DNA of 64,000 bases from Flavobacteriales bacterium (GTDB lineage: Bacteria; Bacteroidota; Bacteroidia; Flavobacteriales_F; PHOS-HE28): NCBI GenBank assembly GCA_016700415.1, contig CP065018.1:3244420-3308419 (forward strand), given 5' to 3'. Of this stretch, positions 1-4,074 are shown piece by piece. The notes beneath the pieces were generated by a model. The model was not told the DNA's origin and ran no database searches. It was given only the letters and a program-made list of their open reading frames with translations. How positions within the stretch are numbered: the stretch's first letter is position 1; each line of letters begins with the position of its first letter. The position numbers and the translations under genes were made by a program.

Positions 1-933
1 CTCGTCCACCACTCTTGCAACATCCTTCTCGGCATACCCCCGCACGGTTAGGAGCAGTCGGAATTGCCGATCGCTTCCGCTGTCGGTCAGCAGGCGCATC
101 ACGTGTTTGAGGCGCCCTTTTTCAAACAGGTTCGCGTCGTCCACGAGCAGCAGATAGTCGCCTGCCTGACCGCACGTCAGGGTAAGATCTTCATACAGGT
201 CGAGGCTCTTGTCAACGATACATAGAGATCGTATTTTAATGTGTGCAGAACAGTATCGGTTAGTCACCTCCAGGGCCAATCGGGATTTGCCAACGCCTGG
301 TTTACCACGTAGTATTACGATTGAGTGGGAGCCAAGTGCGGATAGAACTTCTTGGACTTCCTTCTCCCTAAATCGGAACTTCGTCTCGTAGCTGGTGGCA
401 TACTTCCCTTGCGACGCATGCCGCTTGAATTCCTCCTTCGAAAGAAGTTGGCCGGTGCCGATCGAAATGCCTAGTTCATCCTTTGCGATATCGACTGACC
501 CTGAGGATAGCTCAGGTGCCAAAATGCTGGGACCGATGATTTCCAGCGGGCATTTGTGGCGTCGTGCCAGCTGTTGCAGTGAGGCATGGTCAGAAGCGCT
601 GAGCCCACGGTTGAGACACAAAACGATTTTGCCGACACGAGGCTTCGCTATGCCGGTGAGTTCCTTTTTCAGGCACTTCGCGTAATCCTTCTTTAGCTTT
701 TGCAGCAACCCCTTGCCCTTCTCTGTGGTGCATTGCATGAAGCCGTATTTCTTGCGCGGAAGTTGGAACCACCCATCGTATGGTGCCACACGGGTCTTGT
801 CCTCTCCTAGCACCCGACCCGTCGCATCTATCGGGGGATAGCCTAGGCGTGGTAGTATCCTTGTACATAGGCGCTCGAAGCGTGCTTGGTTCATGCGCGA
901 GAGCGCACCTTCGATTTGGCTGGTCTTAGACAT
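1..933 (-). CDS. Nuclease (Mrr/PD-(D/E)xK-like)-STAND-type P-loop NTPase fusion, C-terminus runs off the window
   Basis: Hand translation from ATG at 933 is open to base 1: MSKTSQIEGALSRMNQARFERLC...KTRVAPYDGWF...YGFMQCTT, then Walker A GKPGVGKS (283-306) and Walker B YLLLVDD. Not in the ORF track. Confidence 0.8.
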   Translation of the reverse strand, partial: MSKTSQIEGALSRMNQARFERLCTRILPRLGYPPIDATGRVLGEDKTRVAPYDGWFQLPRKKYGFMQCTTEKGKGLLQKLKKDYAKCLKKELTGIAKPRVGKIVLCLNRGLSASDHASLQQLARRHKCPLEIIGPSILAPELSSGSVDIAKDELGISIGTGQLLSKEEFKRHASQGKYATSYETKFRFREKEVQEVLSALGSHSIVILRGKPGVGKSRLALEVTNRYCSAHIKIRSLCIVDKSLDLYEDLTLTCGQAGDYLLLVDDANLFEKGRLKHVMRLLTDSGSDRQFRLLLTVRGYAEKDVARVVDE

Positions 934-986
934 GGAGTTGGAATGCCGCGGTTTTCATCAAATACTTTCATGCAAAGTAGTTCCTG

Positions 987-1430
987 CTAAGCTCTTCGTG
1001 CTATCGCCGCGATGACGCATACTACGGTCAGCCCGGCAAGAACGCCCTTAACCGTGTCGGTCTGTTTACTCGCTTTGACGAAGTTCAGTGTATCATTGAC
1101 AAAGTGCTCGCAGTTGTAATTGAAGGCATCGTACTTCCATCCTATGCGTGAGTTTCCACGATCGATCACGCCTTGGCGCGCCCATTCATCGCCTCGGAAG
1201 GAAGTGATCTCTGTGATCCTGCCAACACGAACGAGGAAGTGATCCATGCGCGTGAAAACCACTCCCTGTCCGACGAGGTTCTCTACAACCCATGCATCAC
1301 CATTGGCGTCATAACCCCAGAACAGCGCGTAGTGCTGAACGAGGTCAAAGAGGCTCTTGGGTGATTTGATAAGGTCAGCGGAGCGCAGGCCATGGTTGGC
1401 TGCAATCTGAAAGGAGTTGTTCCTGGTCAT
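987..1430 (-). CDS. LRAT/NC-domain (permuted NlpC/P60 papain-like) protein with C-terminal hydrophobic helix
   Basis: QHYALFWG His motif, YNCEHF Cys motif, tail VLAGLTVVCVIAAIARR. Start overlaps the DUF2188 stop (TAATG). Confidence 0.8.
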   Translation of the reverse strand: MTRNNSFQIAANHGLRSADLIKSPKSLFDLVQHYALFWGYDANGDAWVVENLVGQGVVFTRMDHFLVRVGRITEITSFRGDEWARQGVIDRGNSRIGWKYDAFNYNCEHFVNDTLNFVKASKQTDTVKGVLAGLTVVCVIAAIARRA

Positions 1431-1654
1431 TAGCCTTTGGGGGGATAAGGGTCTTTGCCATGACTGTCCTTGTCCCGGATCCTACCATCCGGGCGATGGA
1501 TGATCAGCTCGGATCCGTTGTTCTTGGAGATCTCCCGACCGATCTCGATGGCCTTCTTTTGAGTCGGCACGACCACGGTCGCGCGCTTCCCACCTTCGCG
1601 TTTCACCGCCCAGTCGTTTCCGTGCGGGACTACATGTTGGTTCTTCTTTCCCAT
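1430..1654 (-). CDS. DUF2188 family protein
   Basis: QHVVPHGNDWAVKREG...TQKKAIEIGR...ELIIHRPDGRIRDKDSHG matches the DUF2188 pattern. Confidence 0.9.
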   Translation of the reverse strand: MGKKNQHVVPHGNDWAVKREGGKRATVVVPTQKKAIEIGREISKNNGSELIIHRPDGRIRDKDSHGKDPYPPKG

Positions 1655-1709: not shown

Positions 1710-1800
1710 TTGATCGACACTTTCAGTGCGTTGATCGACGATCTTCGGCGATCGATCGACAAGGTTGACGAATAATGTAAATGTATATACATTTGTCAAC
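1710..1800. promoter_or_regulatory. Candidate operator region of the divergent promoter
   Basis: TyGATCGAC at 1710, 1731 and 1752 (21-bp period). Perfect palindrome AAATGTATATACATTT at 1779-1794. GTTGAC/GTCAAC inverted pair at 1764/1795. Confidence 0.5.
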
Positions 1801-1828: not shown

Positions 1829-2896
1829 ATGGACGACGTCCACAGCACCTTCGGCGAGCGCCTTCAACTGGCGCGCAAGATGGCTGGGCTTTCCTATCAA
1901 GGTCTGGCCGACAAGCTGCAAGGCCTCGTGACCAAACAGGCGTTGCACAAGTACGAACAGGACACGATGATGCCTGACAGCGAGAAGTTGATCGCGCTGG
2001 CGAATGCATTGGACGTGACCGTGAACTTCTTCTTCCGACAAGACCCGGTGAAGGTGGAGTTGGAGCATATTGAATTCCGCAAGACGTTACGCCTGCCCGC
2101 CAAGGAGCGCGATGCGATCCTGAGCCGCATCACGGATGAGATGGGCCGCTACTTGGAAGCTGAGCGCTTGATGGGTGCCGGAAAGAGGTTCGTGAACCCG
2201 CTGGCGAAGGAGGACGCAGTGACCGAGCCCGAACAGGCGGAAGAAATGGCGGAACTCCTACGGAGACGCTGGAAACTGGGGGTGGACGGGATACCGAGTG
2301 TGTATGAAACCTTGGAGCAACAAGCGATCAAGGTGATGGAATGCCATGCCTCCAGCCCATTCGATGGCTTGAACGCACGAGTGGACGACCACATGGTGAT
2401 CGTGATGAATGACGAGAAGGAAGTGGTGCGCAAGCGCTTTACCGCAGCGCATGAGCTCGGACATGCGTTACTGAACATTCCGGATGATCTCGATCACAAA
2501 ACCAAGGAACATATCTGCCATCGCTTCGCCGGGGCCTTCCTGTGGCCGCGTGAGCAGTTCATGGACAGAGTGGGGCCAAGGCGCGCGCGCTTCATGCTGG
2601 ATGAACTGGTCGAGTGGAAGCAACGTTGGGGCCTTTCGTTCAAGGCGATCATCCGTCGCTCATACGACCTCGGGATCATTAATGATGCCACCTACAAACG
2701 GTCGCTGATCAACTACAACATGGCGGGTTTCGGCAAGGGTGAGCCGGATGATTACAAGATGCCCGAGCGCACGGTGCGTTTCGAGCAACTCGTTCTTTCG
2801 GGTTTGGCGCAGGACATCCTTTCGCTGAATCAAGCGGCCGACCTGATGAATATGAAGATGGGTGACTTCCGCAAGAAGTACAGCGAAGTGATATAA
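1829..2896 (+). CDS. XRE-family HTH fused to ImmA/IrrE (DUF955) Zn-metallopeptidase
   Basis: N-terminal FGERLQLARKMAGLSYQGLA...LHKYE HTH, and RKRFTAAHELGH HExxH motif. Confidence 0.9.
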   Translation: MDDVHSTFGERLQLARKMAGLSYQGLADKLQGLVTKQALHKYEQDTMMPDSEKLIALANALDVTVNFFFRQDPVKVELEHIEFRKTLRLPAKERDAILSRITDEMGRYLEAERLMGAGKRFVNPLAKEDAVTEPEQAEEMAELLRRRWKLGVDGIPSVYETLEQQAIKVMECHASSPFDGLNARVDDHMVIVMNDEKEVVRKRFTAAHELGHALLNIPDDLDHKTKEHICHRFAGAFLWPREQFMDRVGPRRARFMLDELVEWKQRWGLSFKAIIRRSYDLGIINDATYKRSLINYNMAGFGKGEPDDYKMPERTVRFEQLVLSGLAQDILSLNQAADLMNMKMGDFRKKYSEVI

Positions 2897-3084
2897 TGGG
2901 TGCCACGACGAACCTTGGATCGGAGTCATTGTCCCTTCGGGCCAACCCTGCGGGCGCATGCCTCTGGTCTGCCCATACTTCGTTGTTCCTCGGTCGGAGA
3001 CTTCCAGTATCCTCCCTCGTCACGCCTCGTCTGGCCAAACCATAGTCAAGCGTGACAACCGACCGAGGTTCGTCGAGGCACCCA
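2897..3084. mobile_element. MITE/REP-like element or structured leader bounded by 22-bp imperfect inverted repeats
   Basis: TGGGTGCCACGACGAACCTTGG (2897-2918) matches the reverse complement of 3063-3084 with 2 mismatches. Internal stems 2988-2997/3059-3068 and 3019-3025/3050-3056. Confidence 0.6.
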
Positions 3085-3579
3085 GTCCTGGTCGTGACGG
3101 ATACCAATGTGTTCATTGATCTGATGAGCGTGGATGCCCTTGAGGCGTTCTTCGCATTGTCGTTGGAGGTGCACACGACCGGGTTCGTCACAAACGAATT
3201 GAACAAGGAGCAGTCAGCGTTACTGGTCCCACATATCGGCGGCGGACGAATGCTCATCGATCGCTTCACGGATGTAGAGATCAGGGAGATCATGGAGATG
3301 ACCACACGGAATGTGTTGCACTTCACGGACCGTTCAGTCATTCACTTAGCCGGAAAGCTGACCGCGACGGTCCTCTCCGGAGATGGTCGATTATGGAAGG
3401 AATGCAAGGCTCGGCGGCTGGACGTGCATGGTAGTCTCTGGGTGGTCGAGCAGATATGGGTCAAGCAGCTTGTTCAACCAGTTGCGTGCATTGATAAGCT
3501 GAAAGCCTTGAAGAAGATCAACTCGCGACTTCCGAAGGATAAGATCGATGCGTTGATCGAACGGATCAGGAAAGGATAG
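3052..3579 (+). CDS. PIN-domain (VapC-like) ribonuclease; true start uncertain
   Basis: VVTDTNVFIDL first acidic motif, FTDRSVI and LSGDGRL motifs. Typical partner of HTH-Zn peptidase genes. Confidence 0.8.
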   Translation: MTTDRGSSRHPVLVVTDTNVFIDLMSVDALEAFFALSLEVHTTGFVTNELNKEQSALLVPHIGGGRMLIDRFTDVEIREIMEMTTRNVLHFTDRSVIHLAGKLTATVLSGDGRLWKECKARRLDVHGSLWVVEQIWVKQLVQPVACIDKLKALKKINSRLPKDKIDALIERIRKG

Positions 3580-3633
3580 GTTCTTCACGTGCGCCCCCCA
3601 TCCGCCCCACCTTTGTCCAAAACCCATTCACCC

Positions 3634-4074
3634 ATGATCTGGAAGAAAGGACGCGGCACCCTCGGGCCGCTGGCACCGCTGTTCGGCAGCTGGGAAGCGG
3701 GCGCCGACTCACCGATGGGCAAGGTGCGATGCACGCGCGTGTTCACGGCGGTGCTCGGCGGCAAGTACATCGCGCTGGATTGCGCGTGGCACTTCGGCAA
3801 AGGCGCGTATGAAGAACGAGCGCTCTTCGGCGCGGACAATGGCGTGCTCTCGTTCTGGTCCTTCACCTCGGATGGCAAGCGCAGCAGCGGCGTGCTCAGC
3901 ACTGCGCCTGATATTCACACCGACGCCATCTGTTTCGAGGCGAAGATGCCGGCAGGTATTGCGCGGCAGGTCTATTGGCCCCACGCCGACGGCGGCTTCA
4001 ACTGGGCGGTGGAGAGCAGGACGAAGAAGGGCTGGAACCGGTTTACGCTGCACCATTACCAGGTCAAGCAGTAA
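3634..4074 (+). CDS. Hypothetical protein, possible lipocalin/nitrobindin-like beta-barrel
   Basis: LGPLAPLFGSWE start and alternating beta-strand pattern. ATG at 3634 preferred over GTG at 3589. Confidence 0.55.
   Translation: MIWKKGRGTLGPLAPLFGSWEAGADSPMGKVRCTRVFTAVLGGKYIALDCAWHFGKGAYEERALFGADNGVLSFWSFTSDGKRSSGVLSTAPDIHTDAICFEAKMPAGIARQVYWPHADGGFNWAVESRTKKGWNRFTLHHYQVKQ

What the first reader, a model, noticed from the sequence alone, without database searches (positions are those of the whole stretch)
2894..3084. Inverted-repeat-bounded structured insert sits right after the coupled start codon of the PIN toxin
The peptidase stop overlaps an ATG (TAATG, 2894-2898) that is in frame with the PIN domain. 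Directly after it comes a segment bounded by 22-bp inverted repeats (2897-2918 / 3063-3084, 2 mismatches) with one in-frame TAG at 3043. Removing 2899-3081 (183 nt) gives ATG CCA GTC CTG GTC GTG ACG GAT = MPVLVVTDTN, a canonical PIN start. The right arm has a mutually exclusive partner (2988-2997 pairs with 3059-3068), and the fallback GTG at 3052 is buried in stem 3019-3025/3050-3056. Inference: either a MITE/REP insertion that silenced the toxin, or a conditional RNA switch or excisable element that gates toxin translation.
Basis: partly seen in the sequence, partly recalled or inferred. Interest (0 to 1): 0.7.

Follow-up and report, generated by a model that had tools for sequence, protein, structure and literature searches.

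The report
Hairpin insert splitting antitoxin-toxin gene pair
A roughly 188-base hairpin-forming piece of non-coding DNA has landed exactly at the junction of a regulator/peptidase gene and its partner PIN nuclease (toxin) gene in a wastewater Flavobacteriales bacterium. It is a fixed, single-copy, mobile-element-like insertion, not a demonstrated RNA switch or intron, and the toxin gene still looks functional.

Summary
TAATG at 2894-2898, the 22-nt inverted repeat (2897-2918 / 3063-3084, 20/22) and the in-frame TAG at 3043 are all present.

It is a true insertion. The syntenic sister lineage L028 (86-90% nt identity) and more distant orthologues (L007, L026) have overlapping or abutting genes (ATGA, TGAtATG) and a 165-aa PIN starting M-x-x-VVTDTN. 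The insert is therefore 186 nt (2899-3084) or 189 nt (2899-3087), not the proposed 183. It has no target-site duplication.

It is single-copy in this organism and invariant in every same-species contig inspected. One full relative (L023, 80% identity, unrelated intergenic site) and fragments in other sludge organisms show a small family. The family has an invariant 40-nt apex, 7 compensatory stem changes and cUNCGg tetraloops. There is no Rfam hit.

Metatranscriptome contigs run unspliced across both junctions, and no DNA or RNA joint was seen. PIN remains under purifying selection (dN/dS 0.10). The proposed alternative pairing is not conserved.

Best reading: a MITE-like hairpin element of an undescribed family, fixed between antitoxin and toxin.

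The parts
1788..1795 (+). Bacteroidota-type -7 promoter-like motif TACATTTG, about 34 nt upstream of the peptidase ATG; the likely operon promoter
   Evidence: TANNTTTG scan; no such motif lies inside the insert. Promoter use is inferred.
1829..2896 (+). HTH (Xre) + ImmA/IrrE (Peptidase_M78/DUF955) fusion protein, 355 aa; the predicted antitoxin/regulator
   Evidence: Pfam HTH_3 1.2e-9 and Peptidase_M78 3.7e-12. NCBIfam 'spr1629 family repressor/antitoxin' 2.2e-36, below the curated cut-off.
2894..2898 (+). TAATG stop/start overlap
2897..3084 (+). 188-nt hairpin element measured from inverted-repeat end to end. Relative to empty sites the inserted DNA is 2899-3084 (186 nt) or 2899-3087 (189 nt).
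2897..2918 (+). left arm of the terminal stem P1
2946..2954 (+). small hairpin CCC-UGCG-GGG (cUNCGg tetraloop). The loop is UUCG in L023 and UACG in a third copy. A second cUUCGg hairpin lies at 2934-2942.
2955..3052 (+). long imperfect arm (rod) with compensatory changes relative to L023
2982..3021 (+). 40-nt apical core identical in L023. Its first ~22-32 nt (2973/2982-3004) also match contigs of other organisms; beyond 3001 those copies carry small insertions.
3063..3084 (+). right arm of the terminal stem P1
2896..3045 (+). 49-codon ORF opened by the coupled ATG, ending at TAG 6 nt before GTG 3052; a possible relay ORF (inferred)
   Evidence: Peptide conservation with L023 merely follows the nucleotide core.
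3052..3579 (+). PIN-like nuclease gene (COG2405/DUF3368 family). It is 175 aa from GTG 3052. Gene callers start it at GTG 3094 (161 aa) or later (GTG 3109, 156 aa; ATG 3124, 151 aa). The ancestral start is displaced.

Best explanation
A non-autonomous, hairpin-forming (MITE-like) element of an undescribed small family inserted between the stop codon of the HTH-ImmA/IrrE antitoxin-like gene and codon 2-3 of the COG2405/DUF3368 PIN toxin-like gene. It became fixed in this activated-sludge Flavobacteriales species. It is transcribed as part of the operon mRNA and is not removed. It separates the PIN body from its ancestral translationally coupled ATG and buries the region in a stem of about 22 bp plus a long arm. 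PIN must therefore now be made from a secondary start. The most plausible is GTG 3052, reached by termination-reinitiation after the 49-codon ORF that begins at the coupled ATG; GTG 3094 is the alternative. The likely net effect is less toxin per antitoxin. Such an insertion site is tolerated, or even favoured, in a toxin-antitoxin-like pair. Shown: the insertion, its single copy, the family, the conserved folded structure, co-transcription, and an intact, constrained PIN. Inferred: the mode of mobility, the start codon now used, and reduced translation.
For: Empty sites: L028 (syntenic, 86-90% nt) has GTAGTATGAAGCTGGTCGTG with an ATGA overlap; L007/L008 have TGAtATG and L026/L027 have ATGA. 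Orthologues are 165-166 aa and start M-x-x-VVTDTN. All six displayed same-species loci (NCBI, ENA, Logan) carry the identical insert, and 24 contigs encoding the same PIN protein were read. Three ~3.8-Mb single-organism contig sets give only one piece at >=80% likeness. Family: L023:8341-8530 is 80% identical over 139 nt at an unrelated SiaC/Wzc intergenic site, and further contigs in runs X4, X5, X8 and X14 share the core. Structure: 56 consensus pairs, 7 with changes on both sides against 0 in slid controls. RNA contigs 2838-2999, 2816-3050, 3026-3241, 2738-3073 and 2949-3098 cross the junctions without joints. PIN dN/dS is 0.10 and peptidase 0.066 versus L028. PIN has 2 conservative unique changes. 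The start codons at 3052 and 3094 are predicted to be paired. Earlier agents' notes, which I did not check, report other MITEs in the same genome.
Against: There is no target-site duplication in either full copy. The conservation pattern, with an invariant apex, covarying stems and cUNCGg loops, is the reverse of a typical MITE, where the ends are most conserved. It suggests selection on a folded RNA or single strand. No expression data show which start codon is used. RNA evidence comes from low-depth contigs (2-5x) that could include DNA carry-over.
Confidence: 0.55

Rival explanations
1. The family is a functional structured RNA module acting in cis in transcripts, for example an RNase III processing or mRNA-stabilising hairpin comparable to transcribed Correia, ERIC or REP elements. 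Here it was retained because it uncouples antitoxin and toxin stoichiometry.
For: The 40-nt apex is invariant while the stems change by compensation. Three different cUNCGg tetraloops (UUCG, UGCG, UACG) occupy the same hairpin on the + strand. The element is low-copy rather than amplified. It is co-transcribed with the operon. A different insert sits at the same junction in L025, which suggests selection for uncoupling.
Against: Only two full copies are known. In both, the minus strand folds 13-15 kcal/mol better, so the functional strand is unclear. No Rfam match. The L023 copy lies beside IS debris, not in an obvious mRNA. No processing ends are visible in contig data.
Confidence: 0.22
2. 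The insertion silenced the PIN toxin, which is now an unexpressed gene on its way to decay.
For: The ancestral start is displaced and both fallback GTGs are predicted to be paired. Gene callers disagree on the start: 151, 156, 161 and 175 aa. The window branch has slightly more non-synonymous change than L028, roughly 10 versus 5, which is not significant.
Against: The ORF is intact and the candidate catalytic acidic residues are kept: D and E are invariant, the latter in the TNEL-equivalent motif (only E and L invariant), and both D are invariant in FTDRSV and SGDG. dN/dS is 0.10. Unique substitutions are no more numerous than in other lineages. RNA contigs extend into PIN.
Confidence: 0.12
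3. The insert is an excisable or self-removing element (an intron-like RNA, or DNA excision) that conditionally restores the MVLVV start.
For: The insert length is a multiple of 3 (186 or 189). The terminal stem brings both junctions together. The ATG is retained at the left edge.
Against: No joints appear in 11 DNA runs or 4 RNA runs. At 188 nt it is far below group I or II intron size, and no ribozyme family was hit at E<=10. The L023 copy is not inside a gene.
Confidence: 0.03
4. It is an independent small-RNA gene or a retron-like ncRNA (terminal a1/a2-type stem, small hairpins, long hairpin) that happens to lie here.
For: The architecture resembles msr-msd. It is single-copy per genome.
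Against: No ORF of at least 200 aa in the 64-kb window or in the 12-kb L023 locus looks like a reverse transcriptase. The only YADD ORF is a universal stress protein. RNA depth equals that of the flanking mRNA, so there is no abundant discrete RNA. No internal promoter motif.
Confidence: 0.04

Closest known systems
Bacterial MITEs and hairpin repeats that are co-transcribed with flanking genes (Neisseria Correia elements, enterobacterial ERIC/IRU, REP/BIME); comparison from my own knowledge
   Same: Size of 100-200 bp and terminal inverted repeats. It folds into a long RNA hairpin, lies between or at the edge of genes in an operon, shows presence/absence between close lineages, and can change the relative expression of neighbouring cistrons.
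   Different: No target-site duplication (Correia elements duplicate TA). Single copy in the genome instead of tens to hundreds. The apex, not the ends, is the best-conserved part. No sequence similarity was found in the plasmid or phage collections or in Rfam.
Rickettsia palindromic elements and other in-frame palindromic inserts
   Same: A palindromic element inserted inside or at the edge of a coding region with a length that is a multiple of 3, and the host gene stays functional.
   Different: This insert carries an in-frame TAG (3043), so it cannot simply be translated as an extra loop. It sits at codon 2-3, not in a surface loop.
Three-component HTH + DUF955 (ImmA/IrrE, COG2856) + PIN-like (COG2405/DUF3368, DUF4411) toxin-antitoxin-like modules (Matelska et al. 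2017, PMC5499597)
   Same: The host locus has this architecture. The HTH-peptidase fusion lies directly upstream of the COG2405 PIN, overlapping or abutting it in the orthologues checked.
   Different: In this species the pair is split by the hairpin insert. In L025 the same junction holds an unrelated G+C-rich insert.
Intervening sequences (IVS) of 23S rRNA
   Same: An extended hairpin inserted into a transcript, whose basal stem is an RNase III-type substrate.
   Different: Those are in rRNA and are excised without religation. No processing is shown here, and the host is an mRNA.

Membership tests
MITE (non-autonomous DDE-transposon derivative) | Terminal inverted repeats | tested here: met
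   22-nt arms, 20/22 complementary. L023 has 20-nt arms, 18/20.
MITE (non-autonomous DDE-transposon derivative) | Target-site duplication flanking the element | tested here: not met
   Window flanks are ...GATATAA | GTCCTGG.... L023 flanks are ...CAGCACT | (C)TGGGAC.... No direct repeat appears under any boundary choice.
MITE (non-autonomous DDE-transposon derivative) | Multiple copies in the host genome | tested here: not met
   One piece only in three ~3.8-Mb single-organism contig sets at >=80% likeness. No second copy in the 64-kb window by BLAST or by covariance model.
MITE (non-autonomous DDE-transposon derivative) | Presence/absence polymorphism with a clean empty site in relatives | tested here: met
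   L028, L007/L008 and L026/L027.
MITE (non-autonomous DDE-transposon derivative) | Autonomous insertion sequence with matching ends | not testable with these tools
The genome-contig scan with the arm motif gave only 8 single chance hits.
Known RNA families (Rfam 15: riboswitches, ribozymes, 6S/6S-Flavo, introns, sRNAs) | Covariance-model match | tested here: not met
   No relevant hit at E<=10 on either strand, for the window copy or for L023. ARAGORN found nothing.
Riboswitch-like two-conformer RNA switch | Mutually exclusive pairings both conserved among relatives | tested here: not met
   2988-2997 / 3059-3068 is perfect in the window. In L023 the partner reads CCGTTGGAGG, with 3 central mismatches to the invariant core.
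Self-splicing intron / excisable element | Junction molecules lacking the insert | tested here: not met
   No joints in DNA runs X1-X5, X8-X10 and X14, nor in RNA runs X25-X28. RNA contigs span both borders. Contigs cannot exclude rare events.
Retron ncRNA (msr-msd) | Adjacent reverse transcriptase gene | tested here: not met
   No RT-like ORF in the window or L023. The only YADD ORF is Usp.
Ssn-related motif (SRM/NTS) hairpins | Match to the published SRM degenerate motif (PMC11893778) | tested here: not met
   Zero matches on either strand of the window and L023.
HTH-DUF955 + COG2405/DUF3368 PIN three-component TA-like module (host locus) | HTH and Peptidase_M78 domains upstream of a PIN-like COG2405 protein on the same strand | tested here: met
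   Pfam hits. Precomputed PF11848 on all PIN homologues. The family profile hits VapC6 2lcq at 6e-4. My own hmmscan of the single window protein did not reach PF11848. Toxicity was not tested.

The most novel reading that the evidence does not exclude
The element may belong to an undescribed class of low-copy, horizontally moving structured RNA modules: a terminal stem of about 22 bp, cUNCGg hairpins, and a long arm with an invariant 40-nt pyrimidine-rich apex. On this reading it inserts without target duplication and works inside mRNAs as a processing or translation-relay 'intervening sequence'. Here it would convert a directly coupled antitoxin-toxin pair into a relay (peptidase, then a 49-codon ORF, then GTG-started PIN) that tunes toxin dosage.
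Probability: 0.12. Interest if true: 0.6.

Novelty: new member of a known kind. Interest (0 to 1): 0.33.

Why it matters
Small hairpin repeats are common in these high-G+C sludge Flavobacteriales. One more insertion is not surprising in itself.

The case is tidy, though. It has a datable insertion with a clean empty site, placed exactly at the translational-coupling point of a predicted three-component toxin-antitoxin-like module. The toxin gene remains under purifying selection afterwards. A relative carries a second, unrelated insert at the same junction.

It therefore offers a natural experiment on how far antitoxin-toxin coupling can be loosened. It also adds a hairpin family whose conservation pattern hints at RNA-level function: invariant apex, covarying stems and UNCG loops. 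If that hint holds, it would add to the few bacterial examples of mobile RNA structure modules acting inside operon mRNAs.

Tried and rejected
- **Whole-genome tools.** Copy number was therefore estimated by laying three single-organism contig sets.
- **Genome-contig scan.** The apical core would have been the better pattern.
- **Other collection scans.** A viral-contig scan with the core found only an unrelated phage coding sequence. The metagenome scan with the core found one true relative, L023, and four chance hits. Plasmid and phage blastn found nothing.
- **Finding copies through spurious ORFs.** Searching the 5.8-billion protein set in two frames gave nothing. Exact look-ups of L023 ORFs were not on record.
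- **Covariance model R1.** It found no further copy in 248 kb of held sequence.
- **Known RNAs and motifs.** Rfam, tRNA/tmRNA, the Ssn SRM motif and a literature search for the core sequence were all negative.
- **Retron idea.** Rejected because no reverse transcriptase is present.
- **6S RNA idea.** Rejected because there is no 6S or 6S-Flavo hit and RNA depth equals that of the flanking mRNA.
- **Translational bypassing.** Rejected because there are no matched take-off and landing codons (read from the sequence).
- **Second empty site.** Laying the window organism's contigs on L023 failed because the flanks are too divergent.

Full report
**1. Observation**

- The 355-aa HTH + ImmA/IrrE (Peptidase_M78) ORF runs 1829-2896 and ends in TAA. 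The TAA overlaps an ATG (TAATG, 2894-2898).
- The 22-nt arms 2897-2918 and 3063-3084 are 91% complementary.
- The arm motif occurs only at these two places in the 64-kb window, against 0.01 expected.
- The ATG frame is the PIN frame and is closed once, by TAG 3043-3045.
- The 10-nt pairing 2988-2997 / 3059-3068 exists, and so does the stem 3019-3025 / 3050-3056.
- The segment folds far better than shuffles. The + strand gives -84.2 kcal/mol, z -4.3. The - strand gives -95.8 kcal/mol, z -5.6.

**2. It is an insertion**

The downstream protein belongs to the COG2405/DUF3368 PIN-like family. All homologues carry a precomputed PF11848 hit. The family profile reaches VapC6 (2lcq) at E 6e-4. My own hmmscan of the single window protein did not reach PF11848.

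Thirty homologue clusters are 165-167 aa, and those I read start M-(K/R/I)-(I/L)-VVTDTN. Only the window's species and one other lineage have odd gene calls: 151, 156, 161 or 175 aa in the window's species, and 151 aa in L025.

Junctions in the orthologue loci:

| Locus | Relation to window | Junction |
|---|---|---|
| L007/L008 | more distant orthologue | ...GTGATCTGAtATGAAGATCGTCGTCACC |
| L026/L027 | more distant orthologue | ATGA overlap |
| L028 | closest; syntenic over 2.9 kb at 86% nt, PIN at 90% nt | ...GTAGTATGAAGCTGGTCGTGACGG (ATGA overlap) |

The window therefore carries extra DNA between the stop codon and codon 2-3 of PIN.
- It is 186 nt (2899-3084, with 1 nt of ambiguity) if the ancestral junction was TAATG-GTC-CTG. 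That restores MVLVVTDTN and 165 aa.
- It is 189 nt (2899-3087) if aligned strictly to L028.
- No direct repeat flanks the insert under any boundary choice.

**3. Copy number and population**

All six displayed same-species loci (NCBI, ENA, Logan) carry the identical insert in the same place. In total 24 contigs encoding the same PIN protein were read.

Twenty wastewater, sludge or bioreactor DNA runs from 2017-2021 hold all sampled words of the region. Four further runs from 2025 appear.

Three ~3.8-Mb single-organism contig sets (X1-X3) put only one piece on the element, even at 80% likeness. The same tool picked up 22-nt matches in other runs. The element is therefore single-copy and fixed in this organism.

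**4. A small family exists elsewhere**

Metagenome runs contain contigs from other organisms that match the apical part of the element and have similar but not identical flanks.

A scan of JGI metagenomes with the 19-nt core gave one full relative, L023:8341-8530. It is 80% identical over 139 nt. It lies in a 750-nt intergenic region between a SiaC-family gene and a Wzc-type gene, which is unrelated to the window's locus.

Comparison of the two copies:
- They share an invariant 40-nt apex (window 2982-3021).
- They differ mostly in the stems, and do so by compensation. Of 56 consensus pairs, 7 changed on both sides and all cells remain paired. Partners slid by 1-3 columns give no compensatory pairs. 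With only two sequences, and a structure derived from them, this is suggestive rather than proof.
- The small hairpin at 2946-2954 has a cUGCGg loop here, cUUCGg in L023 and cUACGg in a third copy. This is an RNA-type signature on the + strand.
- Against that, both full copies fold 13-15 kcal/mol better as the minus strand. The functional strand is not settled.
- The proposed switch partner (3059-3068) has three central mismatches to the invariant core in L023.

**5. What it is not**

- No Rfam family matches either copy at E<=10.
- No tRNA or tmRNA-like fold.
- No plasmid or phage similarity.
- No Ssn-related motif.
- No reverse transcriptase in the window or in L023. The only YADD ORF is a universal stress protein.
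- No further copy in 248 kb of held sequence with covariance model R1.
- The arm motif found only chance hits in 185,579 species genomes.

**6. Transcription and excision**

Metatranscriptome contigs of the organism cover these spans:
- 2838-2999
- 2816-3050
- 3026-3241
- 2738-3073
- 2949-3098
- 3081-3363

They cross both borders of the insert at the same low depth as the flanking genes. There are no joints. No DNA run shows a joint either.

The only Bacteroidota-type -7 motif nearby is at 1788-1795, upstream of the peptidase gene. None lies in the insert. The insert is therefore read through as part of the operon mRNA. Nothing indicates splicing or excision, although contigs would hide rare events.

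**7. State of the toxin gene**

The PIN ORF is intact. The invariant acidic residues are kept: D and E are invariant, the latter in the TNEL-equivalent motif (only E and L invariant), and both D are invariant in FTDRSV and SGDG.

It has 2 conservative unique substitutions at sites invariant in 14 other homologues. That is no more than other lineages have.

Against the empty-site sister L028:

| Gene | dN | dS | dN/dS |
|---|---|---|---|
| PIN | 0.041 | 0.39 | 0.10 |
| Peptidase | 0.020 | 0.31 | 0.066 |

Either the insertion is very recent or PIN is still expressed and useful. The 'silenced toxin' reading is not favoured.

**8. Mechanism (inferred)**

The ancestral arrangement relied on stop/start overlap. 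Now the coupled ATG opens a 49-codon ORF that runs through the hairpin and stops at TAG 3043, 6 nt before GTG 3052. GTG 3052 is in the PIN frame and would give the complete PIN with a 10-residue N-terminal extension.

Both GTG 3052 and GTG 3094 are predicted to be base-paired in the free mRNA. A ribosome translating the 49-codon ORF would melt that structure. A termination-reinitiation relay is thus the simplest way to keep PIN expressed, probably at a lower level.

The long hairpin could also protect the upstream cistron from 3' decay or serve as an RNase III site, as known for REP, ERIC and Correia elements (my own knowledge). None of this was tested here.

**9. Host locus and context**

HTH + DUF955 + COG2405 PIN is a previously predicted three-component toxin-antitoxin-like system (PMC5499597). 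The peptidase also resembles NCBIfam 'spr1629 family repressor/antitoxin'.

A relative, L025 (GCA_016713865.1), has an unrelated, very G+C-rich insert of about 105 nt that replaces the stop, the ATG and 1.5 codons at the same junction. This junction has therefore been hit at least twice, which fits tolerance of, or selection for, uncoupling.

Earlier notes of this scan report several other small hairpin and MITE families in the same genome. I did not check them.

**10. Verdict**

The feature is a fixed, single-copy, MITE-like hairpin insertion from an undescribed small family, at the coupling point of a toxin-antitoxin-like pair. It is a new member of a known kind.

There remains a modest chance, about 0.1-0.2, that the family is a functional RNA module rather than selfish DNA.

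Noticed in passing
L025:1935-2040 (GCA_016713865.1, JADJOG010000039.1): A different insert of about 105 nt and roughly 85% G+C, hairpin-forming, replaces the peptidase stop, the PIN ATG and 1.5 codons at the same junction. It encodes a Gly/Pro/Ala-rich stretch. With one frameshift in a G-run it would fuse the peptidase and PIN into one protein. It is unrelated in sequence to the window's element.
   Followed up: partly
L023:8553-8700: Twenty-two nt downstream of the L023 copy lies a reading-frame remnant (GKGHADQNMAIIRRNALTMCKR...). By tblastn it hits only ISAs1-family transposase C-termini, weakly (best E 7e-3). The L023 copy therefore sits in insertion-sequence debris.
   Followed up: partly
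L023:8832-8899: This 50-70-nt stretch resembles (80-90%) a sequence in the window's own organism at which contigs of run X1 break. That suggests a repeat, perhaps an insertion-sequence end, elsewhere in that genome. It is not present in the 64-kb window.
   Followed up: partly
runs X4, X5, X8 (contigs of another organism): Two copies of the 22-nt core GTTGTTCCTCGGTCGGAGACTT lie 150 nt apart on the same strand. One copy carries a 21-nt A+T-rich insertion just before the core. This suggests tandem or composite versions of the element in another sludge organism. The contig sequences could not be fetched.
   Followed up: no
window 1-1654 (minus strand) and L028, L026: The divergently transcribed nSTAND3-like NTPase (1261 aa in full), LRAT/NlpC-P60-like and DUF2188 genes are syntenic with the HTH-peptidase/PIN pair in L028 and partly in L026. 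This supports a conserved multi-gene, defence-like island.
   Followed up: no
window 3589-4074: The 146-161-aa ORF just downstream of PIN has no Pfam or NCBIfam hit here. The equivalent gene in L007 carries a precomputed BsuBI_PstI_RE hit. Its relation to the TA-like pair is unknown.
   Followed up: no
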